From the NCBI GenBank assembly GCA_020402865.1, contig JADBYT010000021.1:7263-71262 (forward strand): a stretch of DNA of 64,000 bases, given 5' to 3'. The notes under the pieces were generated by a model, which saw nothing but the letters and a program-made list of their open reading frames with translations, ran no database searches and was not told the DNA's origin. The stretch comes from Bacteroidota bacterium. GTDB taxonomy: Bacteria; Bacteroidota; Bacteroidia; Palsa-965. A program made the translations under genes and the position numbers. Each line of letters opens with the position of its first letter. Positions within the stretch are counted from its first letter, which is position 1. This document shows positions 18,955 through 50,665 of this stretch, piece by piece.

Positions 18955-21768
18955 ATGAATAAAGGATGTATGCATAACGTGCACAGTTTATCTGAATTGC
19001 AACATTGTTTTTTATTCCGCGCCAAATGGCTGCTGATAACAGGCTTTATGCTGTTGCATCTTGCAGGTGTATCTCAAAACGGCACATGGACATGGATTTC
19101 GGGTGATACACTGAGTGCTTCACCGGGCGATTTCGGCGTGCAGGGTGTTCCTTCTCCGACCAATGTTCCGCCAGCGTTGTATGAAGCGGCAGAATGGACC
19201 GATTTAAACGGAAATTTCTGGATTTTTGGCGGCTCCAATATTTCTACCCAAAATGCGTATTCGGATCTCTGGAAATTTGATCCGGTTTCGCAACTCTGGA
19301 CATGGGTAAAAGGGTCGTCGATTCCGCTGATGCCGGGAACTTATGGTGTACAGGGAGTGCCCTCTCCGCAAAACAACCCGGGGTATCGCGAACGCGGCTG
19401 TGTAACCTGGGTGGATGCCGCCGGCGATTTATGGTTGTATGGCGGAAGCGGTCCCGATATAAATGGATTCGACGGTACATCAGACGAGCTTTGGAGGTAT
19501 CAGATTTCAACCAATGAGTGGACATGGATGAAGGGTTCGGGTAACGCCAACCAGCTTGCCATTTTTGGCACATTGCAGGTTCCGGCTCCGACAAACAATC
19601 CACCCGGCATACACGAAACAGCCTGCGGCTGGACAGATGCCGCGGGCGATTTCTGGATGTATGGTGGCGAGGGAACGATCACTCCTAACGCTCATGATGC
19701 CATGTGGCGCTACAATATAGCTACCAATACCTGGACCTGGATGAGCGGGCAAACGATATCTCCGGTCATGCCTAATCATGGTGTACTTCAATCTCCATCG
19801 CCAAGTAATACGCCCGGATCGCGTCGGGTGTATGCACATTGGGAAGATTTGCAGGGAAAATTCTGGCTCTATGGTGGTGCCAGTTTTTTCGGACTTTGCG
19901 GTGATCTGTGGATGTATGATCCTACTACATTGGTTTGGACATGGATGGCCGGAACTCCGACAAATGCCAATTTCACAAACTTTACTACACAATGTACACC
20001 GGGCAATGAACACCCGCATGCGGTATATGAAAACCGTGCAAACTGGCGCGATGAATGCGGACGTTTGTGGTCAATGACCGGCGTTGCATCAGACAGTTCA
20101 CAGAACCCCAATAGCCCGCAATCAACCAGTACCAGCACGCTCTGGTGCTTCGATCCGCTTACTAATCAGTTTGTGTGGGTAAGTGGCCCCACGGCTGCCG
20201 GCGTGGCTGCCCATCATGGCACGCAGGGTGTGCCTTCTGTACTTAACCGCCCGCCGTCGCTCATGGGTACTGTTTCGTTTACCGGCGCCAACGGCGATTT
20301 CTGGCTCTGGGGCGGCGTTGAGTTGTATGGCGGTGCAGCAGTAAAAAACACCCTCTGGCGTTATCAGAAGGATCCCAACTGTCCGCGCTTCCCCCTGCTC
20401 GACTCCATTGCTGCAAATCCGGCCGTTTCGGGCTGTGCGCCATTCACCGCTCAATTATCAAGTGTGTACACTGCAAACGTGAGTTACTTCTGGGATTTTG
20501 GCGACAGCACAACACTTGCCGACACGGCTGTTACGGCATCTGCCTCGTACACGTTTCAGCAACCCGGTGTGTACACGGTTACACTGATCACTACAAGCCT
20601 GAACAGTTGTTATCTCGGCGCCGATACATCTTACCTTACCCTTACCGTACATCCTACACCGCAAATCAATCTGGGTAGCGATACCACAATTTGTTCACCA
20701 CCCGTAAACCTGCTGCTCGATGCAGGCAATGCCGGAGCCTCCTACGCATGGAGCACCGGAGCCACTTCACAAACCATACAGACAACTGCAGCCGGGATAT
20801 ACAGCGTAATAGCTTTCTCCGGCCCCAACAACGTGTGCAGCGACGAAGACTCAATTACAATTACACTTCCTGCACAACCCGACCTCGGCAGCGATACTGC
20901 AATTTGTGCCGGACAGTCGCTACTGCTTAATCCGGGCATTACAGGCAGCCAGTACAACTGGAGCACAGGCGATACAACAGCCACACTACTTGTAAATACA
21001 GCCGGTTTATACACTGTGCAAATCATCGCTCAGCCCTGCACACTCAGCAGCAGCATGACACTGAGTATTACACCGCTGCCTGTGGTAAATCTGGGCTCCG
21101 ACACAACACTCTGCCCCGGCGATACATTGCAGCTCAATGCACAAAATGCAGGAGCAACCTATGCATGGAACAACACAGCCACCTCGCAAACAATTGAAGT
21201 TACTGATGCAGGCAGCTATGCCGTGGTTGTAACTGCACAAAACTGCAGCGCCTCCGATTCGGTGCGCATCAATACCATGCAGGATGTGGACTTTGACCAA
21301 ACAGCCACACTTTGCGGCAGCAGCAATGCGCTGGTGCTTGATGCCGGAAATGCAGGCGCAAACTTTATCTGGAGCACCGGCGAAACATCGCAAACCATCA
21401 CCGTGCAACAAGCCGGCACTTACTGGGTCACAATTAACGCACCGCCCTGCATACTTACCGATACCGTGCAGGTAAACGGAATACTTGGCGAAGGACTTGT
21501 ATTTGTGCCAAACAGCTTTACACCCAATGCCGATGGCCTCAACGACCGCTTCACCGCATCGAGTGAAAACTTCACACAGTTTCATCTGATGATTTTTAAC
21601 CGCTGGGGCGAACTTATTTTCGAAACGTTTGACACGGCTGGCTGGGATGGTACATTTAAAAACGAAATTGCCAAAGGCGATGTGTATGTGTATAAACTAT
21701 CGTACTCGAATATCTGCACAGGCAATCAGGTTATCGGCAAGCTGGGGCATGTAACACTGGTGCGTTGA
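18955..21768 (+). CDS. Secreted Kelch / PKD / Ig-like repeat protein with a type-B T9SS CTD. This is paralog 2.
   Basis: The ORF-track ORF starts at 18883. The likely start is Met 18955 or 18970, before the hydrophobic WLLITGFMLLHLAGVSQ. Same architecture as 15138..17846. C-terminus FVPNSFTPNADGLNDRF…MIFNRWGELIF. Confidence 0.75.
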   Translation: MNKGCMHNVHSLSELQHCFLFRAKWLLITGFMLLHLAGVSQNGTWTWISGDTLSASPGDFGVQGVPSPTNVPPALYEAAEWTDLNGNFWIFGGSNISTQNAYSDLWKFDPVSQLWTWVKGSSIPLMPGTYGVQGVPSPQNNPGYRERGCVTWVDAAGDLWLYGGSGPDINGFDGTSDELWRYQISTNEWTWMKGSGNANQLAIFGTLQVPAPTNNPPGIHETACGWTDAAGDFWMYGGEGTITPNAHDAMWRYNIATNTWTWMSGQTISPVMPNHGVLQSPSPSNTPGSRRVYAHWEDLQGKFWLYGGASFFGLCGDLWMYDPTTLVWTWMAGTPTNANFTNFTTQCTPGNEHPHAVYENRANWRDECGRLWSMTGVASDSSQNPNSPQSTSTSTLWCFDPLTNQFVWVSGPTAAGVAAHHGTQGVPSVLNRPPSLMGTVSFTGANGDFWLWGGVELYGGAAVKNTLWRYQKDPNCPRFPLLDSIAANPAVSGCAPFTAQLSSVYTANVSYFWDFGDSTTLADTAVTASASYTFQQPGVYTVTLITTSLNSCYLGADTSYLTLTVHPTPQINLGSDTTICSPPVNLLLDAGNAGASYAWSTGATSQTIQTTAAGIYSVIAFSGPNNVCSDEDSITITLPAQPDLGSDTAICAGQSLLLNPGITGSQYNWSTGDTTATLLVNTAGLYTVQIIAQPCTLSSSMTLSITPLPVVNLGSDTTLCPGDTLQLNAQNAGATYAWNNTATSQTIEVTDAGSYAVVVTAQNCSASDSVRINTMQDVDFDQTATLCGSSNALVLDAGNAGANFIWSTGETSQTITVQQAGTYWVTINAPPCILTDTVQVNGILGEGLVFVPNSFTPNADGLNDRFTASSENFTQFHLMIFNRWGELIFETFDTAGWDGTFKNEIAKGDVYVYKLSYSNICTGNQVIGKLGHVTLVR

Positions 21769-21882
21769 ACGGCACATCGTGTTAAGTCTGCAGTTTTCCG
21801 GCATTTAACATTAATACGTACCTGCATTTTGAACTCTTTTACATAACTGGTGTTTACTTGTTGAACCCAATTTAACATTCAA

Positions 21883-24585
21883 ATGCCCCGTAGCCTCTTT
21901 GTATTTTGCACACTTCTCATTACATGCACTGTTTCTGCACAAAACGGCGTGTGGACATGGATCGGAGGCGGTAATTTACCCAATCAGGCACCGGTATTCG
22001 GCACTCAAACTATACCTGCGGCAGGCAACAGGCCTCCGCCGGTTTACGGCGCAGCTTCGTGGACTGATCTGAACGGTGATTTCTGGGTGTTTGGCGGTTT
22101 GGATAATTCGGCAGTAACGTCTTACTGGGGTAATCTCTGGAAATTCGATCAGGCACTGGGACAATGGGCGTGGATGAAAGGGCCGAATGTGTCAGATAAT
22201 TCTGGCGTATATGGTACTCTTGGTGTTCCTTCACCGCTGAACCAACCGGGGGCGCGTGCATTCGGGGCATCAACCTGGACAGACAATGCGGGCAATCTTT
22301 GGTTATTTGGCGGGTTTGGCATTGATGCTACCGGCCTGCAGGGTGAAATGAACGATTTCTGGAAATTTGATATTACTACCAATGAATGGACATGGATGGG
22401 TGGCAGTCAGAATATTTACGGTGCCGGGAGCTTTGGTACGTTGCAGGTTCCATCGCCCGCAAATATGCCTTCGTACCGGTCAGAAACCTTAGCCAACTGG
22501 AAAGATGGTGCCGGTAATCTCTGGCTGTTTGGCGGCACCTACTATGATGATATGTGGCGTTTTGATCCGCTTACCAACACCTGGACCTGGATGGCAGGCA
22601 GCAATGTAACAGGTGCGCTTGTTGTGCATGGCACACTTGGCGTTTCGTCGCCCGCCAACACACCGGGGCAACGCTGGGCATACGCCCACTGGACCGATCA
22701 GCAGGGGAAATTCTGGCTTTATGGCGGATTGCTTAACAGCACTACGCTCATGGGTGATATGTGGAAGTTTGATCCGGTAACGCTTGAATGGACGTGGATG
22801 GCGGGCAGCAATTTGCCTAACGATTCAACTACTTTTACTCAGCAATGCACCCCGGGCGGTTACCCCGATGCCACTTATGAAGGTCGTTCGTTCTGGACTG
22901 ATGCTTGCGGAAGATTCTGGAATGCACACGGAGGAAGTATTTTTGAAGCAGAAAACCACATCTGGATGTTTGATCCGGTGACCAATCAGTTTTCGTGGAT
23001 AAGCGGTGCGCTTAGTCCGGCCACACCCGCAAATTTTGGAACACAAAATGTACCTTCGCCCGCTAATTATCCGCTTGCCTTGGTGGGGACAGCGTCTTTT
23101 AACGATTTGAGCGGCAATCTTTGTTTGTATGGCGGCATGGATGCGAATACAGGATTTAGCTACAACACCATCTGGCGCTATCAGATTGACCCGGTTTGTC
23201 CGGGAACCAATGTTACGGCGCAGTTTAACGTTTCACCCGGACTTTCAGGTTGTGCCCCGTTTACCACCCAATTTACACCGGCAGTAAATTTGTATTCCGC
23301 ATACACCTGGAATTTCGGCGATACAGCCACCACAGCCGATACAAGTAGCCTGATTTCTCCGGTGTGGACCTACACACAGCCGGGCACATATACGGTAACG
23401 CTGATTACTTCGGGCCTTTCGGCCTGTGGTGGAGGCAGCGATACGGTTTCTGCCACAGTTACCGTATATCCGCAGCCCCAGCCAAACCTCGGCAGCGATA
23501 CCACCATTTGCATTGGCCCCGTTAACCTGCTGCTCGATGCCGGAAATTCCGGCAATAGCTACCTCTGGAATACCGGCGCTACCACACAAACGCTGGCCGT
23601 GAATGCGCCCGGCATCTATTCCGTTACTGTTTCTGCAGGCCCGAACGGACTTTGCAGTGTGCAGGACACCATCGTAATCACCCAACCCGCGCAGCCCGAC
23701 CTCGGCGGCGATACCACCCTTTGCGCCAACCAATCGCTCCTGCTCGATCCGGGTGTTACCGGTACACAATACAACTGGAGCACCGGCGCCACAACGCCTA
23801 CAATTACGGTTAATACTGCCGGCTTGTACAGCGTGCAAATCATCAACCCGCCCTGCACGCTCAGCAGCAGCATGAACCTGAACATAACACCGCTGCCGAT
23901 AGTGAACCTCGGCGCCGACACCACACTTTGTCCCGGCGACAGCATTCTGCTCAACGCACAAAATCCGGGCGCTATGTTTTTATGGAGCAATGCGGCCAAC
24001 ACACAAAGTATCACCACCGCCACAGCAGGAAACTACGCCGTAACCGTTACCGCACAAAACTGCAGCAACAGCGATACAATAAACATAAACACCAGCGCAG
24101 CACTTACTTTTGATGAAACCATATCGCTCTGCGGCAGTTTCAATGCGCTCATACTGGATGCCGGTAATCCCGGAGCCGGCTTCCTCTGGAATACAGGCGA
24201 AAACACACAAACCATCAGCATTGAACAGCCCGGCACCTACTGGGTTACGGTAAATGCTCCGCCCTGTGTACTTACTGATACCATTGAAATAATTGGAAAT
24301 ATTGGCGAAGCTGCAGTGTACATCCCCAACAGCTTCTCGCCAAACGGCGATGGTCTCAACGATAACTTCAGCGGCTACGGCGAGAGTTTTACTTCCTTCC
24401 GCCTCCTCATCTTCAACCGCTGGGGCGAACTCATTTTTGAAACCACCGATCCGGCCGGCTGGGACGGAAATTTCAACGGCACAAAAGTTACCGACGATGT
24501 GTATGTGTACAAACTCAGCTACACCAGCGCCTGCACAGGTGGTAAATTTGTGGACAGGCTGGGGCATGTAATGTTATTAAGGTAA
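21883..24585 (+). CDS. Secreted Kelch / PKD / Ig-like repeat protein with a type-B T9SS CTD. This is paralog 3.
   Basis: 900 aa, signal MPRSLFVFCTLLITCTVSAQ, Kelch WTWMxG repeats, WNFGD PKD-like block, Ig-like modules nearly identical to paralog 2, and CTD YIPNSFSPNGDGLNDNF…LIFNRWGELIF. Confidence 0.8.
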   Translation: MPRSLFVFCTLLITCTVSAQNGVWTWIGGGNLPNQAPVFGTQTIPAAGNRPPPVYGAASWTDLNGDFWVFGGLDNSAVTSYWGNLWKFDQALGQWAWMKGPNVSDNSGVYGTLGVPSPLNQPGARAFGASTWTDNAGNLWLFGGFGIDATGLQGEMNDFWKFDITTNEWTWMGGSQNIYGAGSFGTLQVPSPANMPSYRSETLANWKDGAGNLWLFGGTYYDDMWRFDPLTNTWTWMAGSNVTGALVVHGTLGVSSPANTPGQRWAYAHWTDQQGKFWLYGGLLNSTTLMGDMWKFDPVTLEWTWMAGSNLPNDSTTFTQQCTPGGYPDATYEGRSFWTDACGRFWNAHGGSIFEAENHIWMFDPVTNQFSWISGALSPATPANFGTQNVPSPANYPLALVGTASFNDLSGNLCLYGGMDANTGFSYNTIWRYQIDPVCPGTNVTAQFNVSPGLSGCAPFTTQFTPAVNLYSAYTWNFGDTATTADTSSLISPVWTYTQPGTYTVTLITSGLSACGGGSDTVSATVTVYPQPQPNLGSDTTICIGPVNLLLDAGNSGNSYLWNTGATTQTLAVNAPGIYSVTVSAGPNGLCSVQDTIVITQPAQPDLGGDTTLCANQSLLLDPGVTGTQYNWSTGATTPTITVNTAGLYSVQIINPPCTLSSSMNLNITPLPIVNLGADTTLCPGDSILLNAQNPGAMFLWSNAANTQSITTATAGNYAVTVTAQNCSNSDTININTSAALTFDETISLCGSFNALILDAGNPGAGFLWNTGENTQTISIEQPGTYWVTVNAPPCVLTDTIEIIGNIGEAAVYIPNSFSPNGDGLNDNFSGYGESFTSFRLLIFNRWGELIFETTDPAGWDGNFNGTKVTDDVYVYKLSYTSACTGGKFVDRLGHVMLLR

Positions 24586-33099: not shown

Positions 33100-33132
33100 T
33101 AAAAAACCGGTTCCTGCAAAAGCAGAAACCGG
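33100..33132 (-). terminator. Intrinsic terminator for the caspase/TIR–STING operon (read on the - strand).
   Basis: Compound hairpin CCGGTTcCTGCaaaaGCAGaAACCGG at 33107–33132 preceded on the + strand by AAAAAAA (33100–33106), which is a U-tract on the - strand transcript. It lies 43 nt after the stop of the 33175..34113 gene. Confidence 0.55.
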
Positions 33133-33174
33133 CAGCACACAGCAATCACAAATACACATCGGAAGGAATAAGGA

Positions 33175-34113
33175 TTACTGGTGCATTGGGGTGACATGAA
33201 CTATTTTTTGGCATAACGTATCACGTGCGATGTAATGTGAAAGTACCCGGGAAAAATTATTCATTTCACGAATTATCACTTCCTCTTTTGATTCGTTATT
33301 GCCAAAATAGGTTTGGGGAAAAAGCATGTTAATGGCTGCTTCAATTGCTAAGGGCGAAGAAGGTATTATACAAAACTCAATGCGGTTATCAGGAACACGC
33401 AAGTTCCGGTATGCCGCAAATACAGCCCCTTTGCACTCACAAATTATCTTCTTCCATTTTGACTGTGAAAAAAAATAATCAACTGCCGCAAGCGTATGAT
33501 CGTGAATCGAATTGGAAACTAAAATGTGTAGTGATAACTGTTTAATGTTGGCGCCCAATGCATAATTCGGGAGGTTTTCTTTCAGATACACAACCAATGG
33601 CGAAACACAATTAATGTAATACTCATAGGCCAGCACACCCGATGAAAATTTACTCAAAGCCACATTATCCTGTTGTTTCAGAATCTGATTGCGAATAGTA
33701 TTCACCACAGAAAGTAAGCTCAATCTGTCTTCATCAGCTGCACCGGTATTAAACTTTAAAACTACCACACCATCAAGATCAGATGGCAGTTTCACCTTTT
33801 CGTCGCAAATAAGAAATGTGAAATTGTATCCTTTAGCTCCGTCGAAAAGACCAAACTCATACAATACATTATCGCGTGTTGCTGAGTAAATTTCATTTCT
33901 GTATGCTAACTTATCATCGGCCGTAGCCACAAATATCCCGAAATCATAATAGTTCAGCGATCGTTGTAGAATTTGACTTACAGTTTCACCACTTCTGAAC
34001 ACGCCTTCGTTCCAAAGTGTGGCATCGAGTTCTGGTTTAAGTAATGTTTTTACTTTTTCGGCTGCTGCGAGCCCCTCTTTCGAGGATCCGATAAATATTT
34101 TTAGTGGCACCAT
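33175..34113 (-). CDS. TIR-like domain fused to a STING-like cyclic-dinucleotide-binding domain (CBASS Cap12 / bacterial TIR–STING-like effector).
   Basis: 312 aa, ATG at 34113 confirmed. The N-terminal approx. 140 aa show the COG4271-type TIR-like pattern KIFIGSSKEG…LWNEGVF…GETV…DFGIFVATADD. The C-terminal approx. 160 aa carry SGVLAYEYYINCV…LSLHILVSNS…YRNLR…EFCIIPSSPLAIEAAINM, paralleling the STING CBD elements GLAWSYYIGYL…LYILLPLD…R238… (recalled human and bacterial STING features). The gene is AT-rich. Confidence 0.6.
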   Translation of the reverse strand: MVPLKIFIGSSKEGLAAAEKVKTLLKPELDATLWNEGVFRSGETVSQILQRSLNYYDFGIFVATADDKLAYRNEIYSATRDNVLYEFGLFDGAKGYNFTFLICDEKVKLPSDLDGVVVLKFNTGAADEDRLSLLSVVNTIRNQILKQQDNVALSKFSSGVLAYEYYINCVSPLVVYLKENLPNYALGANIKQLSLHILVSNSIHDHTLAAVDYFFSQSKWKKIICECKGAVFAAYRNLRVPDNRIEFCIIPSSPLAIEAAINMLFPQTYFGNNESKEEVIIREMNNFSRVLSHYIARDTLCQKIVHVTPMHQ

Positions 34114-34116
34114 AAA

Positions 34117-35115
34117 TCAGAACATTCCTTTTTTCGACATTTTCCAATAAAGTTTCCCGGACAAGGTAAGTTCTGCGGCCCCGTTTCTCATGGCTGCCCA
34201 GTATAAGTCTTCTTCCGGCTCGCAAGGTTTAAGCAAACCGGCATCGCGGAGTTTTTTGAACACCTTAAACTTCTTCACGTTTTCAGGATTCATAAATTCT
34301 TTCTCCGTTTCCTCCCAGCTTTTATCCATTTTCACCTTCGAATCAGGTGTAATGAATAACTCAGGAAGCCGATGTAGTTCATTTATAGTCAACCGCGTAT
34401 GTGCTTTCCGAATCAGATGCAACCGGTCTGTATGCGTTTTAAACTGCGGGCGTTGCTGCCAGGCACCAAGCATCTGATCGGCATAATTATATAAACTGGC
34501 AGCAGTAACCCGGCCAAGAATATCAGCAGCACCACCATTTAATCCATCACACAGTATTCCGGTAAAAAGCCCGCCATTGCTGTTTTCCCATGAAAGTTCC
34601 TTTGGGGAGCTTGAGGTAAGAATTGATAGGCCGGGAGAAAGCAGTGCATGTGGAATATCGAGAGATGAAAAGTTACCTAAATGACCGGCATAGCAGCAAT
34701 CCAATATCAGTGTAACCTCTTTTATTTTTCGTTTGGCGAGGGCATCATTTGCCAGCGCAAGAAGTTCGGAAACGGGAAATCCCTCATTAAATTTTTCGGG
34801 ATTCTGAGCCACAAGAAAACCTTCGAGATTATTCTCATAGCCATGTCCTGAAAAATAAAATAAAACACGGTCATCAGGTGTTCGGAACAGGTCGTGAATA
34901 TTTTCTCTCAGTTTCCTTAATGTTACATTCGTAACGGGTGAAGTAATTAGTTTACAATCATAATTTATAGAACCATCATGATGACGACTCAGTAATTTAT
35001 TCATTGCAATTGCATCAGGAACGCTTCCTTTAAGCGGTGAAGTGGCATAATCATTAATGCCAACAATTAAAGCACGGGCCATGAGTTTATGAATTAGTGT
35101 GGAAGCAAACATCAT
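34117..35115 (-). CDS. Caspase-family (peptidase C14, metacaspase/orthocaspase-like) protein with an approx. 130-aa C-terminal extension.
   Basis: 332 aa from the ATG at 35115 (the ORF track begins one codon earlier on TTG). N-terminal RALIVGINDY (metacaspase-like start), catalytic His in FYFSGHG, catalytic Cys in LILDCCYAG. Stop is 3 nt before the TIR–STING start. Confidence 0.7.
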   Translation of the reverse strand: MMFASTLIHKLMARALIVGINDYATSPLKGSVPDAIAMNKLLSRHHDGSINYDCKLITSPVTNVTLRKLRENIHDLFRTPDDRVLFYFSGHGYENNLEGFLVAQNPEKFNEGFPVSELLALANDALAKRKIKEVTLILDCCYAGHLGNFSSLDIPHALLSPGLSILTSSSPKELSWENSNGGLFTGILCDGLNGGAADILGRVTAASLYNYADQMLGAWQQRPQFKTHTDRLHLIRKAHTRLTINELHRLPELFITPDSKVKMDKSWEETEKEFMNPENVKKFKVFKKLRDAGLLKPCEPEEDLYWAAMRNGAAELTLSGKLYWKMSKKGMF

Positions 35116-35185
35116 CAAAACACATTCATAATTTTTCCTCAGTTCCCACTATTTTAAATCCTTAGAACTATGGATTTATTAAAAT

Positions 35186-35818
35186 TTAAGCTAATCCCAT
35201 TTCCACAGCCTTACGTACAAGGCCAAGTGTACCTTTCACACCAAGTTTGGCAATCAGGTTGCGGCGGTGTGTTTCAACGGTGCTGGCGGCAATAAAAAGT
35301 TTTTCGGCAATTTCGGGAGTGGTACATTCTCGGGCAATAAGGCGTAAAATTTCCTCTTCACGCCGTGTGAGTTTCACGTTTTTTATTTCCTCTTTTTTCC
35401 TTTTGCTGCTGCGTATTACAGCCATAATTTCCTGACTGAAATAAATACGCCCTGCGGCAAGTTCCTTAATAGCCAGCACCAATTGTTCAGCACCTCTGGT
35501 TTTGAGAATGTAACCCGACACGCCCACATCAATCAGTTCATCCACATGTTCTGACTGATCGGAATACGTAACAATGAGAATGGGAATATCAGGAAATTCA
35601 ATTCGCATGAGTTTGGCCACTTCAATGCCTGAAATTCCGGGCATACCAATATCAAGCACCAGTACATCGGGCATATGTGCTCTTACCAGAGGCAGCACTT
35701 CATTTCCGTTGTTTGCTTCGGCCACAATACTGATACTGTCGCCGGCAAGGCTTTTCAGTACATCATTGAGGCCATCAATAAACATTTTGTGATCGTCGGC
35801 AATAATTAAGCGTATCAT
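35186..35818 (-). CDS. LuxR/NarL-family two-component response regulator.
   Basis: The internal ATG at 35818 gives MIRLIIADDHKMFIDGL… (receiver domain; Asp in VLDIGMPG) and a C-terminal LuxR HTH (LTRREEEILRLIARECTTPEIAEKLFIAASTVETHRRNLIAKLGV). The ORF-track extension to 35914 overlaps the kinase. Confidence 0.85.
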   Translation of the reverse strand: MIRLIIADDHKMFIDGLNDVLKSLAGDSISIVAEANNGNEVLPLVRAHMPDVLVLDIGMPGISGIEVAKLMRIEFPDIPILIVTYSDQSEHVDELIDVGVSGYILKTRGAEQLVLAIKELAAGRIYFSQEIMAVIRSSKRKKEEIKNVKLTRREEEILRLIARECTTPEIAEKLFIAASTVETHRRNLIAKLGVKGTLGLVRKAVEMGLA

Positions 35819-35828
35819 AAGCGTTGGT

Positions 35829-37901
35829 TCAATGAACAGGAATATCAATTGACACGGATGTTCCGTGACCGGGTTGTGAATCGATGTGGAAAGTGGCGTT
35901 AATCTGTGTGGCACGGTTGCGCAAGCTGGTTAACCCAAGTCCTGAGCGCGACTGTGCTTTGGCTGTGTCAAAACCATTTCCATTGTCTTCCACCATAAGG
36001 TTAATATTTCCATTTTGGCGCTGAAGCTGAATTGTAACTTCCGACGCATTGGCATGACGCAAAATATTGGCCATGAGTTCGCGCACGATTTGATAAATAT
36101 TAAACTCGGTAGCTCCGTCGAGCCTGCTGTTCAGGCCGTTTGCATGAAACTCCACCTGAAGTTTATTGAGGCCGTTAATGTTATTGCATAAATTCTCAAT
36201 GGCTCTCACTAATCCGAAGGTTACCAGTTCGCCTTTATGCAAATCAGCCGCCACAAGCCGCACTTCTTCACAGGCCTCGTCGAGTATTGAATTGGCTTTT
36301 TTCAGTTTTTCAAGTTCTTCGGCCGACAGGCTTCCGGCCATATTTTCCATTAAGTTGTAATACAGTTTTGCGGTAGAAAGTTTAACACCGAGGCTATCGT
36401 GCAGATCCTGAGCAATTCGTTGCCGTTCTTTCTCTTGTGTTTCAAGCATGGTTTGAACGGCCAGTTGTTCCTGGTTGCTAAGCAGGTCTTCAATTTGCTT
36501 TTTGCTTTGCTGATTTCGTTTCTCTACAATCCGGTTTCGATACAATGCAAAAAGAAGGATGAGCAGTAAAATAATTATTACCGTCAGTGCAAGAACAATC
36601 AGATTAATTCGCTCGATGCGGGCTTTCTGATGGTCTCTTTCCTTTTCTAATAAAATTCGTTTTGCCTGCTCCTCCTTGTAAGCGATGGCAATTTCAGAGG
36701 CTTGCTGCGAAATATATTCAAGTGTATCGCGGAGTGCTCCTCCGCTTGCAGCATATCGAAAAGCCTCTGAATAGTTTTGCTTTCTGGCGTGAGCCTCGGA
36801 AAGGCAATCGCTAATTTTCTGAAGCAGAAACAAGTCTCTGATTGAAGCGGCTACTGAATCGGCTTTTACCAGATTTAAAATTGCCTCATCATATTTATTC
36901 TGCCTGATCAGCAACCGGCCAATATTAAAGTAGCAAAGCGAAAGCCCCTGTGCATAATTGGTTTTCTGATTAAACTCAAGCGATTTTCGTATATAGGCAT
37001 CAGCCTGCGAATATTCCCCTTCTTTCTCGTAATACTGGCTGATATTGATCTGCACCACAGCTAATTTATTTTCGAGCTTTAAATCAGAATAAATCGAAAT
37101 AGCTTTATTAAACGCATTTAAAGCAACAGTATCACGATTTTCCTTGAGGTAAATTCCGCCAAGATGGTTTAGTATTTCGGCCTGATATTTCTTGGTTTTA
37201 AATGTGTTGGCAATCAGCAGTGCTTCTTCAAACACACCAGCAGCACGGTTGTTTAAATTTTGTCGTTCATACACCTGCCCCATTCCCTGCAGGGCTTTAA
37301 ACCGCATAAGGCTGTCGTTTATTCGCTCAGCAGTATCGAGTACCTGCTGATAGAATGATAATGCTTTGGGATAATTGGAACGTTTCAAATGAATATTTGC
37401 GGCTCCTACCAACGCCTGCACCATTTGCTCCTTTTTATCAGGCATTGTGCCCCATATCCGGGCAGCTTCATTGGTATAATGTAACGCAGAATCATAGCTG
37501 CCTCTGTTTTTCAGGATAACTGAAAGCATATATCGGTCTCGCGCCATGCCGTGCATGTACTTGGCATTATCATCAATTGCCTTTGCGTTACGGTAGTAAT
37601 AAATTGCCGAATCGGTATTGCCGGTATTTTCAGCCAAACGCGCATACTGACAATAGGCATCGGCTTTGAGTAACCGGGTTTGTGGTGTGCCAGCCTGCGC
37701 AATTACCTGCCGAAGTATTTCGCGGCTCTTTGCCGGATCGCCCTCGCGCAACGCATAAGCACTATCAAGATTGCGGGCCAGTCTGGCTGAATCAGCAGAA
37801 ACGGAAACAGCTGACGAAGGCTGATCAGACTGTGTACAGCCTGAAAGTGATACAATAAAGCTGCAAGGAATAAATAGAAGTATAAACAAGATAAATTGCA
37901 T
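35829..37901 (-). CDS. Sensor histidine kinase with a periplasmic/N-terminal TPR array, one TM helix, HisKA_3 and HATPase_c domains.
   Basis: ATG at 37901 (MQFILFILLFIPCSFIVSLSGC, lipoprotein-like signal). Multiple TPR-like repeats, TM LIVLALTVIIILLLILLFAL, H-box RIAQDLHDSLG, ATPase motifs (MVEDNGNGF, GLGLTSLRNRATQI). Followed 10 nt later by the LuxR regulator. Confidence 0.8.
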   Translation of the reverse strand: MQFILFILLFIPCSFIVSLSGCTQSDQPSSAVSVSADSARLARNLDSAYALREGDPAKSREILRQVIAQAGTPQTRLLKADAYCQYARLAENTGNTDSAIYYYRNAKAIDDNAKYMHGMARDRYMLSVILKNRGSYDSALHYTNEAARIWGTMPDKKEQMVQALVGAANIHLKRSNYPKALSFYQQVLDTAERINDSLMRFKALQGMGQVYERQNLNNRAAGVFEEALLIANTFKTKKYQAEILNHLGGIYLKENRDTVALNAFNKAISIYSDLKLENKLAVVQINISQYYEKEGEYSQADAYIRKSLEFNQKTNYAQGLSLCYFNIGRLLIRQNKYDEAILNLVKADSVAASIRDLFLLQKISDCLSEAHARKQNYSEAFRYAASGGALRDTLEYISQQASEIAIAYKEEQAKRILLEKERDHQKARIERINLIVLALTVIIILLLILLFALYRNRIVEKRNQQSKKQIEDLLSNQEQLAVQTMLETQEKERQRIAQDLHDSLGVKLSTAKLYYNLMENMAGSLSAEELEKLKKANSILDEACEEVRLVAADLHKGELVTFGLVRAIENLCNNINGLNKLQVEFHANGLNSRLDGATEFNIYQIVRELMANILRHANASEVTIQLQRQNGNINLMVEDNGNGFDTAKAQSRSGLGLTSLRNRATQINATFHIDSQPGHGTSVSIDIPVH

Positions 37902-37984
37902 GGAAAAGAAATAATGTGGATATGGGAGTTCATACTTATGAACTCCCATAACAGATTGAATGGATCGTGAGGGCATTGGCTGCA

Positions 37985-38350
37985 TTACACAAAAATGATG
38001 GGGCGAACCTGATCTTCATTATCGCCCTGACTCACCACCACATTTACGCTGGCAGAAGAAAGCAGTGTGCTGCCATCCTTTACCATTACATTAATTTCAC
38101 GGGTGGTGCTGAAATCAATGGCTGTTACAGGAATCTGATGGTTTACAAGCGATGCCTGACGCAGCGCAGTGCTGTTTTGCGTTACATAAGCAGTAACTTC
38201 AACCGGATTAACTGTAAGATCGGCTGGCAGTGCGTAGGATTGCGCCACATAGCCCGATTTTGAAAACAGTGAGGTCAGGTAAAGGTAGTGTTCAGTACTA
38301 CCATTTACAGCTTTAGTTACAAGCTGAATAACAGGGTTTTGCATTGACAT
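37985..38350 (-). CDS. Hypothetical protein, possibly spurious.
   Basis: The ORF-track ORF starts on a non-ATG codon. The first ATG gives MSMQNPVIQLVTKAVNG…, about 121 aa, Ser/Thr/Val-rich with no recognisable motif. My coordinate count is ±1 nt uncertain here. Confidence 0.25.
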   Translation of the reverse strand: MSMQNPVIQLVTKAVNGSTEHYLYLTSLFSKSGYVAQSYALPADLTVNPVEVTAYVTQNSTALRQASLVNHQIPVTAIDFSTTREINVMVKDGSTLLSSASVNVVVSQGDNEDQVRPIIFV

Positions 38351-38560: not shown

Positions 38561-39064
38561 CTACCCGTTACTTTTCCAGATCATTACAAAATCTTCCATA
38601 AAATAACCTTCACCAATATCAAAGTCGGCCACTTTATCAATCACAAACCCCAAACGGAAGTAGAAGTTTACCGACTTGTAATTCTTACGGTTAACCGTAA
38701 GTGTCCACTGCTTCAGTTCTGGAAAAAGCGCAGTTGTGGCTGCAAAAACAGCTTTTCCAAGTCCGCGTGCCTGCAAAGACGGATCAATATAAAATTTGTG
38801 CAGGAAATAATGCCCTTCCTCTTTTTGTGATACGGCAATGTAGCCTGCTTTTATTTCGCCCGCATAAATCAGGTAAAACAGTTGGCCTTCCTGCATTTGT
38901 TTAAGCAGCGCAGGTTCAGAATACATGTTACTGAGCATATAATCAACCTGCTTCTGACCGATAATTTGCGGGTAATGCTGCTGCCAGATGTGTGCCGCCA
39001 GTTTGGCTATGGAACTGGCATCGTGTGTGGTGGCTTCAATAAGTCTTACTTCATGCGGGCTCAT
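38561..39064 (-). CDS. GNAT-family N-acetyltransferase.
   Basis: The internal ATG at 39064 gives MSPHEVRLIEATTHDASSIAKLAAHIWQQHYPQII…, with acetyl-CoA motif QARGLGKAVFAAT and C-terminal FYFRLGF. Confidence 0.65.
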   Translation of the reverse strand: MSPHEVRLIEATTHDASSIAKLAAHIWQQHYPQIIGQKQVDYMLSNMYSEPALLKQMQEGQLFYLIYAGEIKAGYIAVSQKEEGHYFLHKFYIDPSLQARGLGKAVFAATTALFPELKQWTLTVNRKNYKSVNFYFRLGFVIDKVADFDIGEGYFMEDFVMIWKSNG

Positions 39065-47676: not shown

Positions 47677-50394
47677 TTACCGTATCAGCACCACATGTCC
47701 GAGGCGTGTTTGCGGTGCATTGCCCGTGCAGGTACTCTTGTACGAAAGCCTGTACACATACACCTCATTTTGCGCCATATTAGTTGCGTATGCGCCATCC
47801 CAGCCTGCGGGATCAAACGTTTCAAAAATCAAATCGCCCCAGCGGTTGAAAATAAGCAGGTGATATTCAGTAAGCCCTTCCACTGTGCCGGTAAAGCGGT
47901 CGTTAAGGCCATCGCCATTGGGTGTAAAGCTGTTGGGCATAAACAGCATGGCCTCGCCCAAACTGCCGGTTACCAGAATACTGTCGCGCAGCGTACAGGG
48001 CCCCGTGTTTAGCGTAACTGAATAGTTGCCGGGGGTGGTTACTAATATGGTTTGTGTGGTATCTCCCGTATTCCAGAGGTGAGCCGCACCGGGATATCCG
48101 GCATCAAGTGTAATTCCGTTCAGTGTGCCGCATAGCGATGCATCCGGTCCGAGATTTACAGGCCTTGTTATGTTTACCTGTATGCTGTCGGCATCAGAGC
48201 AGTTTCCTGACACGGTTACGTTTACGGCGTAAAGGCCTGTACTGTCTGCAAGCAGTGTTTGGGTTACATCACCCGTGTTCCAGTTCCATGCGGCACCCGG
48301 GTTTTGTGCATCGAGCAAGAGTGTGGCTCCGGGACAAAGTACAGTATCATTTCCAAGATTTACAACCGGCAACGGAATTAAGGTAAGCTGCATGGTGCTG
48401 CTCAGTGAACAGGGTGGTACAATTACAGTTACCGTATAAAAACCACCGGTGTTTACAGTAATGCTTGCTGTGGTGTCACCGGTACTCCATATATAATGCT
48501 GGCCGGGAACACCGGCATTAAGTGTGGTGCTTTGTCCTGCGCAAATGCTGGTATCGCCAAGTGCGGGAGCCACCGGAAATGTAAGTTGCACGGTATCGGA
48601 AGCAATACAGTTTGCAACCGAAACCGTTACACTATATACACCATTGCTTCCCGGCGATATGGTTTGTGTGGTGGCTCCGGTGCTCCAACTGTAATTAAAC
48701 CCCGGATTGCCCGCATCGAGTAAATACGTTTGCTGCGGCGGACAAATTACCGTATCGCTGCCCAAATCAACCACCGGCTGAGGATGAACGGTTATAACCA
48801 CCTGATGCGTATCACGCCACACCTCGCAACGTGAAGAGTCGAATGCGACAAGTGTGGCTGTGTAAGTTCCCGGCTGAGCATAAACCCAGCCCACAGCCGC
48901 TGCCGACGAGGTATCGGCTAATGTTGCCTGATCGCCAAAGTCCCAGCTGAGGCGTCCGCTTAACCCGCAAAGGCCGGTTGATGAAAGCGCAAAGTGTACC
49001 GTATCTCCCAAACAAACAACGGTATCACAGCTAAACCCGGCACTGGGCGGACTTGGCGTAAAACGCCATAACTCGTCACTGGTATTTGAAAATCCACCAT
49101 AAACCCAGAAATTTCCATCGTAGTCAACCCAGCCTACCCCACCCATATGAACGCCGGGTAACACATTGGGGCCTGGCACCTGATAGGTACCATACACACG
49201 TTGTCCGGTAAAATCTTCGTGAAGCAATGTCCATTGATTGGTGGCTACGTTATAGCGGTATAGCGTTAAATGTGGCGACAAAGGCCCCGGATTGCCGCCA
49301 AACGTATAAAACAAATCGCAATCAGGTTTATTCCCATTCAAGTGCCATTCCGAATCTCTCACCGGGTAATCAGTTGCCGAGGGTACACAAATACCACCGG
49401 ACAGCGGCGTGGGATATACTTGTTGCGCTCCCTGTATTCCCGAAACCCAAGTCCATTCGTTTGTCTGATAATTATACTTCCACATATCATAATACGCCCC
49501 GCCTACTGCGGCATATTCCCCATTACCATAGAGATAAAATTCATCTGCCGTTGATTGCCAGTTGATATATACATTTCTTGTTCCGGGTGTGTTGGCTGCT
49601 GAAGGAACATTCTGAGTACCATACACCGGAGCCACATAACCAACACCCGGATTTCCTTTCACCCATTTCCATTGATTCAATTGCGTATCGTAAGTCCAGA
49701 CTACATCAGACGCGCCTGAAACATTAACCCCTGCTCCACCAAAAAACCATAAGTTCCCGAGTGAATCGCCCCAACCACAATGGTGTTCGGTTAAAGACTG
49801 AGGCAATGTTGTGGGCGTAAACACATTTTGCGGCCCCGGATTACCGTTGGGCATACTTCCCAAACCCGGTCCGTTCATCCATGCCCACTGATAAATACTC
49901 ACGTCGAATTTCCATAAATTCTGACTGCCATTCCCTTCCAGAAGCCAGAAATTACCATCTTTATCAATAAACTCAGTACTTCCGAAATTTACCGGACAAG
50001 GATAATAGGCAGGTGAAAATACCCCTTGCGACACATACGTACCTGCATAAGGAAATACGCCCCACATAGGCCCGTTCATCCATACCCACATACCCAGCGA
50101 TATATCATACATCCACATGTCAGCAAAGGCACATACTCCGAATTGCGGATCCTGGCTTACACCTCCGTGAAGCCATAAGTTGCCCTGATGATCAGTCCAA
50201 CGTGCCGCCTGATAACGAGAGCCAGGTGTATTGGTTGGAGAAGGAAGCCCCATTACTCCATAACTGGCCATCGCATTTGAGGGTTGATTTCCCTTCATCC
50301 ATGTCCACTCTCCGCCCGACTGCGCAAAAACACTTCCGCATCCGATTGAGAGTATGCATAACAGCATACAAAAACTATATCGTATTCTATTCAT
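47677..50394 (-). CDS. Secreted Kelch / PKD / Ig-like repeat protein with a type-B T9SS CTD. This is paralog 4.
   Basis: ATG at 50394 (MNRIRYSFCMLLCILSIGCGSVFAQ). Same architecture as the + strand paralogs. C-terminus FMPNSFTPNGDGLNDRF…LIFNRWGDLIF. Confidence 0.8.
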   Translation of the reverse strand: MNRIRYSFCMLLCILSIGCGSVFAQSGGEWTWMKGNQPSNAMASYGVMGLPSPTNTPGSRYQAARWTDHQGNLWLHGGVSQDPQFGVCAFADMWMYDISLGMWVWMNGPMWGVFPYAGTYVSQGVFSPAYYPCPVNFGSTEFIDKDGNFWLLEGNGSQNLWKFDVSIYQWAWMNGPGLGSMPNGNPGPQNVFTPTTLPQSLTEHHCGWGDSLGNLWFFGGAGVNVSGASDVVWTYDTQLNQWKWVKGNPGVGYVAPVYGTQNVPSAANTPGTRNVYINWQSTADEFYLYGNGEYAAVGGAYYDMWKYNYQTNEWTWVSGIQGAQQVYPTPLSGGICVPSATDYPVRDSEWHLNGNKPDCDLFYTFGGNPGPLSPHLTLYRYNVATNQWTLLHEDFTGQRVYGTYQVPGPNVLPGVHMGGVGWVDYDGNFWVYGGFSNTSDELWRFTPSPPSAGFSCDTVVCLGDTVHFALSSTGLCGLSGRLSWDFGDQATLADTSSAAAVGWVYAQPGTYTATLVAFDSSRCEVWRDTHQVVITVHPQPVVDLGSDTVICPPQQTYLLDAGNPGFNYSWSTGATTQTISPGSNGVYSVTVSVANCIASDTVQLTFPVAPALGDTSICAGQSTTLNAGVPGQHYIWSTGDTTASITVNTGGFYTVTVIVPPCSLSSTMQLTLIPLPVVNLGNDTVLCPGATLLLDAQNPGAAWNWNTGDVTQTLLADSTGLYAVNVTVSGNCSDADSIQVNITRPVNLGPDASLCGTLNGITLDAGYPGAAHLWNTGDTTQTILVTTPGNYSVTLNTGPCTLRDSILVTGSLGEAMLFMPNSFTPNGDGLNDRFTGTVEGLTEYHLLIFNRWGDLIFETFDPAGWDGAYATNMAQNEVYVYRLSYKSTCTGNAPQTRLGHVVLIR

Positions 50395-50620: not shown

Positions 50621-50665
50621 TTCATCCTTTGATTTTGTAATGGCTCATTTTCCTCATCTTGCATT

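What the first reader, a model, noticed from the sequence alone, without database searches (positions are those of the whole stretch)
33175..35115. Compact operon: metacaspase-like peptidase + TIR–STING-like protein, with no cyclic-dinucleotide synthase
Two - strand genes separated by 3 nt encode (i) a C14 caspase-family protein with an intact His/Cys dyad and (ii) a 312-aa protein whose N-terminal half looks TIR-like and whose C-terminal half looks like a STING cyclic-dinucleotide-binding domain. Bacterial TIR–STING (Cap12) effectors are known from minimal CBASS operons, where they sit next to a cGAS/DncV-like nucleotidyltransferase (CdnE) that makes c-di-GMP. Here no CD-NTase is present within at least 25 kb on either side, and the partner is a caspase-like protease instead. 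I do not recall a caspase + TIR–STING pairing having been described. Caspase-like proteases are established activators or effectors in other prokaryotic immune modules (gasdermin operons, type III-E Craspase). Possible readings: (a) a new abortive-infection architecture where proteolysis and NAD+ depletion are coupled; (b) a STING-family sensor responding to a nucleotide made elsewhere, or by the phage; (c) a decayed CBASS remnant.
Basis: partly seen in the sequence, partly recalled or inferred. Interest (0 to 1): 0.9.

Follow-up and report, generated by a model that had tools for sequence, protein, structure and literature searches.

The report
Thoeris-type caspase paired with degenerate TIR–STING
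A bacterial immune protease of the known "type IV Thoeris" kind sits next to a TIR–STING protein that has kept its NAD-cleaving site but lost the residues that bind cyclic di-GMP, so this looks like a rare hybrid of two known anti-phage systems rather than a broken CBASS or a wholly new one.

Summary
Two minus-strand genes 3 nt apart encode a C14 caspase-like protease and a 312-aa TIR + prokaryotic-STING protein, and the 64-kb window has no CD-NTase. The interpretation needs revising. [quoted passage not shown] TIR + caspase is therefore a published architecture. What is new is the TIR partner: a divergent Cap12-like TIR–STING known from only four protein clusters, all of them next to this caspase. 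It keeps every NADase active-site residue. It has lost the lid Arg in three of the four clusters, the guanine-reading Asp in all four and the presumed stacking Phe in all four (conservative Tyr in one). These are near-invariant in 199 canonical Cap12 proteins. The pair is the 3' end of a five-gene cassette (small ORF, TPR histidine kinase, LuxR regulator, caspase, TIR–STING) at a fixed core-genome site. The cassette is swapped by recombination between related genomes. My best reading (about 0.45) is a Thoeris-like pathway in which the TIR makes a signal that activates the caspase, with the STING fold repurposed. Verdict: new variant of known kinds, moderately interesting, no biochemistry.

The parts
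33106..33133 (-). Intrinsic terminator-like hairpin (12-bp stem, 4-nt loop, T6) closing the operon, 42 nt after the TIR-STING stop codon
   Evidence: Found by the terminator scan and visible in the sequence. The breakpoint in DNA identity between cassette and flank lies here, at about 33015-33100.
33175..34113 (-). Divergent TIR-STING-like protein, 312 aa. TIR domain is about aa 5-122 (nt 33748..34101), with catalytic Glu E86. STING-fold domain is about aa 156-307 (nt 33193..33648), with a degenerate cyclic-dinucleotide pocket (A230, I249, C169 in place of the lid Arg, the Asp and the stacking Phe).
   Evidence: Pfam, PADLOC, NCBIfam and PDB hits. AF2 plus Foldseek TM 0.77-0.84 to 9lmq, 9lmr and 7un8. 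Residue analysis against 115 and 199 canonical Cap12 proteins. dN/dS by domain.
34117..35082 (-). ThsE-type caspase-like protease, 321 aa. C14 domain is aa 1 to about 228 (H80, C129/C130). A conserved C-terminal domain of about 95 aa follows; in type IV Thoeris this domain is proposed to bind the signal.
35186..35818 (-). LuxR/NarL-type response regulator (Response_reg + GerE), 210 aa, 103 nt upstream of the caspase
   Evidence: Pfam. Gene call in the source contig. The same order, kinase-regulator-caspase, is found in at least 12 Bacteroidota genome loci and in L081-L086.
35829..37985 (-). Sensor histidine kinase: lipoprotein-type signal sequence, TPR repeats, one transmembrane helix, HisKA_3 and HATPase_c; 718 aa
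   Evidence: Pfam. Full-length homologues upstream of caspases in other Bacteroidota. The TPR half evolves fast (dN/dS 0.23) and the kinase half slowly (0.03).
37985..38344 (-). 119-aa ORF of unknown function. Its stop overlaps the kinase start. It co-varies with the cassette and is found only in this lineage.
   Evidence: Gene call. No Pfam family. Identity follows the cassette and not the flanks: 84% to L001 but 44-50% to L081, L082 and L085. dS 0.06 against 0.45-0.88 in the flanks. Homologues only in syntenic loci.

Best explanation
[quoted passage not shown] It sits at a fixed core-genome site and is exchanged by recombination among related Bacteroidia.

I propose that the last two genes work as a Thoeris-type signalling pair.
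1. The TIR-STING-like protein takes the place that ThsB-type or TIR_2-type TIR proteins hold in sister cassettes.
2. On infection it oligomerises through its STING-fold domain. That domain no longer reads c-di-GMP and serves as a scaffold or as a sensor for another cue.
3. Its intact TIR active site turns NAD+ into a nucleotide signal, with NAD+ consumption as a side effect or a second hit.
4. The signal binds the conserved C-terminal domain of the caspase and switches on broad arginine-specific proteolysis. This aborts the infection.
5. The two-component system probably sets expression of the operon.

Shown here: the identity and integrity of all parts, family membership of the caspase, loss of the cyclic-dinucleotide contacts, absence of a CD-NTase in 64 kb, tight gene spacing with a single terminator (consistent with co-transcription, which was not measured), and co-inheritance of the cassette.

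Inferred: the direction of signalling, the nature of the signal, the cue that is sensed, and the role of the two-component system.
For: Caspase family membership:
- The caspase is a full-length homologue of type IV Thoeris effectors. It is 41-46% identical over about 315 of 321 residues, including the C-terminal domain, where Q210, R211, K215, R225, F243, E257, G309 and Y312 are invariant.
- In 47 of 80 genome loci a roughly 136-aa PF08937 ThsB_TIR gene lies directly upstream.
- Those TIRs are 44-50% identical to the experimentally validated PsTIR.
- L043 (P. ganghwense) is in the published list of type IV systems.

The slot 3' of the caspase: in homologous kinase-regulator-caspase cassettes it holds a ThsB TIR (L011), a TIR_2 protein (L058, E 3.6e-10), or this TIR-STING (window, L001, L089, L173/L174).

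State of the two domains:
- All NADase active-site residues of SfSTING are kept (F6, S10, W33, F37, L47, R78, N80, E84, D110), as are 26 of 27 columns that are at least 95% conserved in the TIR domain.
- The TIR domain has 0 non-synonymous against 3 synonymous changes to the nearest relative.
- The STING fold is retained (TM 0.77-0.84). R234 becomes A, D259 becomes I, the presumed stacking F165 becomes C, and the filament salt-bridge residue E290 becomes I. Canonical Cap12 proteins keep these in 192-198 of 199 cases.
- This matches the lack of any CD-NTase.

Evolutionary pattern:
- The TIR-STING diverges much faster than the caspase (43-57% against 82-83%). Divergence is greatest in the linker and the STING-like domain, as expected for a component that faces the phage.
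- All four known clusters of this clade lie next to the caspase.
- The gap between the genes is 3 nt, and the only terminator follows the TIR-STING gene.
- The cassette is inherited as a block. Its dS is 0.06-0.24 while the flanks have dS 0.45-0.88.
Against: - Cap12/PF10137 TIR domains are known as NAD+-depleting effectors, not signal generators (PMC9402430; the Yirmiya et al. preprint discards them for that reason). No product chemistry can be inferred from sequence.
- The closest caspase alleles (L081-L086, 51-57% identity) have kinase-regulator-caspase and no TIR gene at all. Other cassettes carry a membrane protein (PF24838, 8xMP) in the same slot. So this caspase clade does not strictly need a TIR encoded in cis.
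- The partner gene is downstream of the caspase. In canonical type IV systems the TIR is upstream.
- The pair is known from only four sequence clusters of one lineage.
- The setting is core genome and not a defence island, and no other defence gene is in the window.
- Nothing shows that the two-component system acts on the pair.
Confidence: 0.45

Rival explanations
1. Two-effector module. The TIR-STING-like protein is an NAD+-depleting executioner, not a signal maker. It acts beside or downstream of the caspase, for example released or licensed by caspase cleavage, or induced together with it by the two-component system. The signal that activates the caspase comes from elsewhere.
For: Cap12-family TIRs are established NADase effectors that act by filament formation (PMC9402430). 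Sister cassettes carry another effector-like gene, the 8xMP membrane protein, in the same slot with no TIR nearby (L023, L049, L057, L076). Other alleles have the caspase alone (L026, L061, L081-L086). Protease-plus-executioner operons such as gasdermin systems are an established pattern (own knowledge).
Against: [quoted passage not shown] The same slot also holds plain ThsB and TIR_2 proteins (L011, L058). No conserved Arg cleavage site stands out in the poorly conserved linker. The filament-interface residue E290 is lost, so canonical Cap12 filament activation is in doubt.
Confidence: 0.25
2. Not an anti-phage system. A kinase- and regulator-controlled protease with an accessory NADase serves a physiological role such as a stress response, programmed death or surface-protein processing in these T9SS-rich Bacteroidia. 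The defence-like domains are co-opted.
For: The setting is core genome, between UvrD-like helicase/SurE/LpxB and an acetyltransferase, with no neighbouring defence genes. The kinase-regulator-caspase unit is syntenic across related genomes.
Against: The cassette shows the marks of conflict genes. There are allelic replacements: flanks are 87-97% identical to L082/L085 while the cassette is 44-71%. There has been recent recombinational spread: dS 0.06-0.24 against 0.45-0.88. The sensor parts evolve fast. The 3' slot is variable and filled with TIR or membrane-effector genes. The caspase family is experimentally a phage-defence effector.
Confidence: 0.12
3. Orphan CBASS receptor. A Cap12 that still senses a cyclic dinucleotide made in trans, by a CD-NTase elsewhere in the genome, by host c-di-GMP metabolism or by the phage. 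Its position next to the caspase is an accident of insertion into a variable slot.
For: The architecture and fold are those of Cap12. The rest of the genome could not be searched. One clade member (P0123, locus L001) keeps the lid Arg.
Against: Residues that contact the ligand and are kept in 197-198 of 199 canonical proteins are replaced: the Asp (D259) and the presumed stacking Phe (F165) in all four clade members (the Phe conservatively, to Tyr, in P0122), and the lid Arg (R234) in three of the four. NCBIfam Cap12 equivalog scores are 194 and 164 bits against a cutoff of 450. Canonical Cap12 genes sit in a CBASS operon with their cyclase, directly or behind a small E2-like gene (PMC8748872). 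The clade is found only next to this caspase, across 43-95% divergence.
Confidence: 0.08
4. Decayed CBASS remnant. The TIR-STING is a non-functional leftover after loss of CdnE.
For: There is no CD-NTase, the ligand contacts are lost, and dN/dS of the linker plus STING part is raised (0.38).
Against: The reading frame is intact in all lineages despite divergence down to 43% identity. The TIR catalytic core is fully conserved, with 0 non-synonymous changes to the nearest relative. The STING fold is predicted with confidence. Many clade-specific invariant residues remain in the STING part.
Confidence: 0.03

Closest known systems
Type IV Thoeris (ThsB TIR + ThsE caspase-like protease; Rousset et al. 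2025)
   Same: The protease is a full-length homologue, 41-46% identical, with the catalytic His/Cys and the conserved C-terminal domain. It is encoded next to, and probably co-transcribed with, a TIR-domain protein that has an intact catalytic Glu. The family occurs across many phyla. The logic is abortive infection.
   Different: The TIR partner is not a short ThsB or TIR_2 protein. It is a Cap12-class TIR (PF10137) fused to a STING-fold domain, it shows no match to a ThsB HMM, and it lies downstream rather than upstream. The pair is embedded in a cassette with a kinase and a response regulator, in a core-genome site. The signal molecule is unknown.
CBASS Cap12 / bacterial TIR-STING (SfSTING, PDB 7UN8; 9LMQ)
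   Same: Same two-domain architecture, length and fold (TM 0.77-0.84). Identical NADase active-site residues. Found in Bacteroidota.
   Different: There is no CdnE or any CD-NTase nearby. The lid Arg, the guanine-N2 Asp, the presumed stacking Phe and the filament-interface Glu are replaced. Identity to canonical members is only 27-32% (STING part about 20%). It scores below the NCBIfam equivalog cutoff. It is linked to a caspase instead of a cyclase.
Thoeris systems in general (types I-XI): TIR sensor makes an NAD+-derived signal for a variable effector
   Same: Modular pairing of a fast-evolving TIR protein with a more conserved effector. Partner genes vary at one position.
   Different: Described ThsB proteins are single-domain or carry other N- or C-terminal extensions. 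A STING fold as the accessory domain, and linkage to a two-component system, are not mentioned in the papers I read.
Protease-plus-executioner immune operons (bacterial gasdermin with caspase-like protease; SAVED-CHAT; type III-E Craspase)
   Different: There is no gasdermin, SAVED, CHAT or Cas7-11 component. The protease belongs to the ThsE family, not the CHAT family.

Membership tests
Type IV Thoeris | Caspase-like (C14) effector of the ThsE family, with a C-terminal domain beyond the protease fold | tested here: met
   41-46% identity over about 315 of 321 residues to homologues whose neighbour is a ThsB TIR, including P. ganghwense, which is listed in Rousset Table S1. The N-terminus of PsCaspase, MRKALVVGI, fits the family consensus.
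Type IV Thoeris | Catalytic Cys (C129 in PsCaspase) and His present | tested here: met
Type IV Thoeris | Adjacent TIR-domain protein with a catalytic Glu | tested here: met
   The TIR-STING gene starts 3 nt after the caspase stop. E86 corresponds to SfSTING E84, and all active-site residues are kept.
Type IV Thoeris | The TIR partner matches PF08937 (ThsB) or PF13676 (TIR_2), as in the published detection rule | tested here: not met
   Pfam reports only PF10137 and PF20300. A ThsB HMM built from 32 caspase-linked TIRs gives no meaningful match, although the same HMM hits PsTIR at 1e-39.
Type IV Thoeris | The TIR produces N7-cADPR, which activates the protease | not testable with these tools
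   This needs LC-MS of the reaction products and a protease reporter assay.
Type IV Thoeris | Located in defence islands or on mobile elements | tested here: inconclusive
   The window holds core-genome genes and no other defence gene. But the cassette is allelically replaced and recently recombined.
CBASS Cap12 (TIR-STING effector) | N-terminal PF10137 TIR followed by a C-terminal prokaryotic STING domain | tested here: met
CBASS Cap12 (TIR-STING effector) | Encoded in an operon with a CD-NTase (CdnE) | tested here: not met
   No CD-NTase in 64 kb by Pfam annotation of all genes, by tblastn or by HMM. In the canonical example L090, CdnE overlaps the start of Cap12.
CBASS Cap12 (TIR-STING effector) | Cyclic-di-GMP contacts: lid R-x-(Y/F/R) Arg, the Asp that reads guanine N2, and a stacking Phe/Leu | tested here: not met
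   The window has A230, I249 and C169, where 197-198 of 199 canonical proteins have R, D and F. The assignment of F165 as the stacking residue is my inference from spacing.
CBASS Cap12 (TIR-STING effector) | Score above the NCBIfam equivalog cutoff | tested here: not met
   193.8 and 164.2 bits against a cutoff of 450.
CBASS Cap12 (TIR-STING effector) | NADase active site (SfSTING F6, S10, W33, F37, L47, R78, N80, E84, D110) | tested here: met
   All nine are identical in the window protein.
CBASS Cap12 (TIR-STING effector) | STING-STING filament interface (E290-R307 salt bridge) | tested here: not met
   E290, kept in 192 of 199 canonical proteins, is I280 in the window protein and V or I in the other clade members.
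Gasdermin-type protease/executioner operon | A gasdermin or other pore-former encoded next to the protease | tested here: not met
   No such gene in the window cassette. Some sister cassettes carry the 8xMP membrane protein instead.

The most novel reading that the evidence does not exclude
A STING-fold domain that has given up cyclic-dinucleotide sensing has been recruited as the sensor or oligomerisation module of a signal-generating TIR. That TIR drives a Thoeris-type caspase, so this would be a natural CBASS/Thoeris chimera. The whole unit is wired to a TPR histidine kinase and a LuxR regulator, forming a recombining cassette that is widespread in Bacteroidota with interchangeable 3' partner genes.
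Probability: 0.35. Interest if true: 0.8.

Novelty: new variant of a known kind. Interest (0 to 1): 0.6.

Why it matters
If the proposed flow is right, three things follow.
- The STING fold can be uncoupled from cyclic dinucleotides and reused as a different trigger for TIR assembly.
- Cap12-class TIR domains, until now filed as NAD+-depleting effectors, could act as signal generators. Surveys that discard 'CBASS-type' TIRs would then miss such systems.
- Thoeris-type caspases in Bacteroidota appear as part of a larger unit controlled by a two-component system, with a swappable partner gene. That would link envelope or environmental sensing to abortive infection.

The pair gives a compact and testable case: two proteins, two point mutants and existing reporter assays. 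It bears on how immune modules are shuffled between CBASS and Thoeris.

Tried and rejected
- The full PsCaspase sequence could not be recovered, because the supplementary cells are truncated. Family membership therefore rests on PsTIR orthology, the P. ganghwense entry and the N-terminal peptide.
- A metagenome scan and a profile search of 5.8 billion proteins found no further members of the caspase-linked TIR-STING clade.
- A single-sequence and then iterated CdnE search recognised the cyclase in only 4 of 21 canonical TIR-STING metagenome loci. Many contigs are short, or have a small E2-like gene in between. I therefore did not use it as a quantitative baseline.
- The sigma-70 promoter scan gave no more hits than shuffled sequence, and it does not suit Bacteroidota promoters.
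- GC content drops at 33-38 kb, but the next 10 kb is similar, so I did not take it as evidence of foreign origin.
- The search for '8xMP' in the paper library gave nothing relevant.
- I considered gasdermin-like, Craspase-like and SAVED-CHAT readings and dropped them because the defining partners are absent.
Full report
**1. The observation**

The two minus-strand ORFs are present as described.

The downstream ORF (33175..34113, 312 aa):
- It matches Pfam PF10137 (CAP12/Pycsar TIR; E 4e-28, residues 5-122) and PF20300 (prokaryotic STING; E 4.6e-10, residues 160-291), both above their gathering scores.
- It matches a PADLOC CBASS 'Effector TIR' model end to end (1.5e-71).
- It matches the solved Cap12 proteins 9lmq (7e-35) and 7un8 (1.4e-26).
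- An AlphaFold2 model built on 57 homologues (pLDDT 88.1) superposes on the TIR-STING/c-di-GMP cryo-EM chains with TM 0.77-0.84, and on isolated bacterial STING domains with target-normalised TM 0.76-0.82.

The upstream ORF:
- It matches Peptidase_C14 (E 8e-18).
- Homologues and the gene call in the source assembly place its start at 35082 (321 aa) rather than 35115/35118.
- The catalytic H80 and C129/C130 are invariant or nearly so in the family.

The junction reads TGA-ttt-ATG. The only strong terminator-like hairpin, with a 12-bp stem and a T6 run, follows the TIR-STING gene at 33133..33106.

**2. No cyclase in the window**

All gene-sized ORFs of the window were annotated. I used the precomputed Pfam hits of the matching source contigs and my own scans of the remainder.

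- The window is core genome. It holds Omp85, CoaBC, RpoZ, BamD, Crp, SucC, Fur, SpoIID, LpxB, SurE, a UvrD-like helicase, HisRS and several Kelch/PKD/CHU_C secretion cargo proteins.
- There is no CD-NTase, no GGDEF protein and no other recognisable defence gene.
- A CdnE taken from a canonical Cap12 locus (L090, where it overlaps the start of Cap12) finds nothing by tblastn or as an HMM.
- The rest of the genome could not be examined.

**3. What the caspase is**

The caspase has 651 full-length homologues of about 315-321 aa in many phyla. The conserved region includes an extra C-terminal domain of about 95 residues, with invariant Q210, R211, K215, R225, F243, E257, G309 and Y312.

I fetched 80 genomic loci and examined the neighbours.
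- In 47 loci, a gene of about 125-220 aa (most about 136 aa) lies directly upstream and matches a ThsB-type TIR HMM built from these neighbours; a representative matches Pfam PF08937, ThsB_TIR.
- This is the architecture published as type IV Thoeris. [quoted passage not shown] The protease then cleaves proteins after arginine (bioRxiv 10.1101/2024.10.24.620036). The effector is now called ThsE.

The link to the published system rests on three points.
- The validated PsTIR, translated from their Table S2, is 44-50% identical to the TIRs of my loci and hits an HMM built from them at 1e-39.
- Photobacterium ganghwense, my locus L043 (caspase 41% identical to the window's over 315 residues), is in their Table S1. 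That JCM 12487 and DSM 22954 are the same type strain is my own knowledge.
- The first residues of PsCaspase (MRKALVVGI) fit the family consensus.

TIR + caspase is therefore a known kind of system, and this caspase is a member of its effector family.

**4. What the TIR-STING is**

It is not an ordinary Cap12.
- Two searches of 5.8 billion proteins find only three relatives above 40% identity: P0121 at 95%, P0122 at 57% and P0123 at 43%. Everything else is at most 32% identical, and the profile score falls from 553 to 220 bits.
- The NCBIfam Cap12 equivalog scores (194 and 164 bits) are far below the cutoff of 450.

I aligned it with 115 and then 199 canonical Cap12 proteins and with SfSTING.
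- The TIR domain keeps 26 of 27 columns that are at least 95% conserved.
- It keeps all nine residues that form the SfSTING NAD+ pocket, including the catalytic Glu (E86 here) and the trans-acting D110 (PMC9402430).
- The STING domain keeps only 10 of 22 such columns.

The losses fall on the ligand site described for bacterial STING (PMC8748872 and PMC9402430):

| SfSTING residue | Role | Canonical Cap12 | Window | P0122 | P0123 |
|---|---|---|---|---|---|
| R234 | lid Arg, reads the guanine Hoogsteen edge | 198/199 R | Ala | Asn | Arg |
| D259 | reads guanine N2 | 198/199 D | Ile | Ile | Leu |
| F165 | stacking Phe (my assignment, from spacing) | 197/199 F | Cys | Tyr | Thr |
| E290 | filament salt bridge | 192/199 E | Ile | Val | Ile |

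So the fold is STING but the cyclic-di-GMP pocket is degenerate. This fits the missing cyclase.

**5. The pairing is specific**

Every member of this clade whose context is known lies just after the same caspase:
- the window (3 nt);
- L173 and L174 (95% identical);
- L089 (partial caspase 82% identical, then 31 nt, then a TIR-STING 57% identical);
- L001, a Bacteroidia MAG (caspase 83%, TIR-STING 43%, 11 nt).

None of 80 metagenome loci with canonical TIR-STING or related TIR genes carries this caspase.

The TIR-STING diverges much faster than the caspase. Divergence is greatest in the linker and the STING-like part: against P0123, the TIR is 53% identical, the linker 16% and the STING part 38%. 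In canonical type IV pairs, TIR and caspase usually diverge together (for example 83% and 80%), with occasional TIR swaps.

**6. The unit is larger than two genes**

The closest caspase relatives (51-57% identity; L081-L087) lie in exactly the same chromosomal synteny: acetyltransferase, 119-aa ORF, TPR/HisKA_3 kinase, LuxR regulator, caspase, then a convergent UvrD-like helicase, SurE, LpxB, SpoIID, Fur and CobW. They have no TIR-STING gene.

Gene-by-gene comparison shows a discordant block:

| Compared with | Flanking genes | 119-aa ORF | Kinase | Regulator | Caspase | TIR-STING |
|---|---|---|---|---|---|---|
| L082 and L085 | 87-97% (acetyltransferase 79%) | 44-46% | 41-44% | 71% | 51-54% | absent |
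| L001 | 80-88% | 84% | 70% | 88% | 83% | 43% |

Against L173 the pattern reverses at synonymous sites:

| Gene | dS |
|---|---|
| UvrD (flank) | 0.88 |
| Acetyltransferase (flank) | 0.84 |
| 97-aa ORF (flank) | 0.63 |
| SurE (flank) | 0.54 |
| LpxB (flank) | 0.45 |
| Caspase | 0.24 |
| Kinase | 0.21 |
| Regulator | 0.18 |
| TIR-STING | 0.08 |
| 119-aa ORF | 0.06 |

There is a sharp break in DNA identity at about 33015-33100, at the terminator. The five genes therefore behave as one cassette that is replaced and spread by recombination at a fixed site.

Within the cassette, the sensor-like parts evolve fastest:
- kinase TPR half, dN/dS 0.23, against 0.03 for the kinase core;
- TIR-STING linker plus STING part, 17 non-synonymous and 12 synonymous changes, against 0 and 3 in the TIR domain.

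**7. The cassette type is widespread in Bacteroidota**

At least 12 further genome loci, from Flavobacteriales, Cytophagales, Chitinophagales and unclassified Bacteroidia, have the same order kinase-regulator-caspase. The gene after the caspase varies:
- a ThsB TIR (L011; L077 has ThsB genes on both sides);
- a TIR_2 protein (L058, E 3.6e-10);
- the PF24838 '8xMP' membrane protein (L023, L049, L057, L076);
- a second caspase (L054);
- nothing (L026, L061).

In L063, L067 and L072 a 417-433-aa TPR-S protein precedes the caspase. Its N-terminal domain shows weak, sub-threshold similarity to the Cap12-type TIR around the catalytic motif (hhalign E 1e-3 but probability only 20%; PF10137 E 0.015).

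A neighbour-joining tree places the window clade among the other kinase-linked caspases, outside the large ThsB-linked group. I treat the tree only as a guide.

**8. How it most likely works**

The caspase family is a signal-activated terminal effector, and its C-terminal domain is as conserved here as in validated systems. The gene beside it encodes a catalytically intact TIR, and in sister cassettes the same position holds ordinary Thoeris-type TIRs. I therefore favour a Thoeris-like flow (confidence about 0.45): the TIR-STING-like protein is triggered and oligomerises, its TIR converts NAD+ into a nucleotide signal, and the caspase is switched on and aborts the infection. In this reading the STING fold has been repurposed, and the two-component system tunes expression.

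The main rival (about 0.25) is that the TIR-STING is a second NAD+-depleting effector. Three things favour it: the known behaviour of Cap12 TIRs, the TIR-less alleles, and the cassettes that carry a membrane protein in the same slot.

The remaining readings rank lower:
- A physiological, non-defence role (about 0.12) fits the core-genome setting but not the recombination and diversification pattern.
- An orphan cyclic-dinucleotide receptor (about 0.08) conflicts with the lost contacts.
- A decayed remnant (about 0.03) conflicts with the purifying selection on the TIR.

**9. Novelty and limits**

In the papers I could search, TIR-STING and this caspase are never discussed together. The type IV Thoeris paper mentions STING only in the phrase 'cGAS-STING pathway'. 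The systematic TIR survey mentions neither STING nor two-component systems, and it explicitly discards TIRs found in CBASS contexts. I therefore rate the locus as a new variant of known kinds and not a new category.

The limits are as follows:
- There are only four sequence clusters, all from one lineage.
- There is no biochemistry.
- No complete genome was available to exclude a cyclase or a TIR acting in trans.
- The library search cannot prove that no description exists.

Noticed in passing
L011, L023, L026, L049, L054, L057, L058, L061, L063, L076, L077 (caspase at about 6001 in each); window 34117..37985: A TPR/HisKA_3 histidine kinase and a LuxR response regulator lie directly upstream of ThsE-type caspases in many Bacteroidota, in the same order and on the same strand. 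I found no mention of this linkage in the two Thoeris papers I read.
   Followed up: partly
L007 1462..1917; L023 7038..7607; L049, L057, L064, L076 downstream of the caspase; L019: A PF24838 '8xMP' octameric membrane protein (E 1.7e-41 for L007) sits next to the caspase. In several loci no TIR gene is within about 5 kb. In L019 it follows a second ThsB gene. It may be another effector or a substrate.
   Followed up: partly
L002 1956..2438 and equivalents in L003, L016, L035, L038, L042, L055, L060, L067, L069: A roughly 160-aa ORF directly after the caspase in ten otherwise canonical type IV Thoeris-like loci. It has only a weak YpsA/SLOG match (E 0.019), which hints at a nucleotide-binding accessory protein.
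   Followed up: partly
L063 3836..5089; L067 4623..5924; L072 4737..5993: Proteins of 417-433 aa with a TPR-S sensor domain (PF20308), directly upstream of the caspase in place of ThsB. Their N-terminal domain weakly resembles Cap12-type TIR or nucleoside deoxyribosyltransferase folds.
   Followed up: partly
L014 6001..7972; L054 6001..8010; L035: Tandem paralogous ThsE-type caspase genes (two 317-aa copies in L014 and L054).
   Followed up: no
window 38715..39014 against L173: A mosaic identity profile. The acetyltransferase gene is a low-identity patch (79% DNA identity, dS 0.84) between two blocks of 92-98% identity. This suggests several recombination tracts around the cassette.
   Followed up: partly
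window 15138..24585 and 47677..57024: Six large paralogous secretion cargo genes (Kelch, PKD or MAM domains with a CHU_C or Por_Secre_tail C-terminal signal for type IX secretion), plus a WG-repeat protein at 17878..18618. This is typical of gliding Bacteroidota.
   Followed up: no
L096, L097, L098, L100, L102, L103, L105, L111 (gene just upstream of the canonical TIR-STING): In eight canonical TIR-STING metagenome loci the gene directly upstream is a 138-172-aa protein with an 'HMYSDGSLCLYYP' motif that looks E2-like (my own reading of the sequence, not tested), rather than the cyclase itself.
   Followed up: no
L022 7993..9189: A 398-aa protein about 1 kb downstream of a canonical ThsB-caspase pair, with a weak Cap12-type TIR match (E 6e-5, query residues 47-125).
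   Followed up: no
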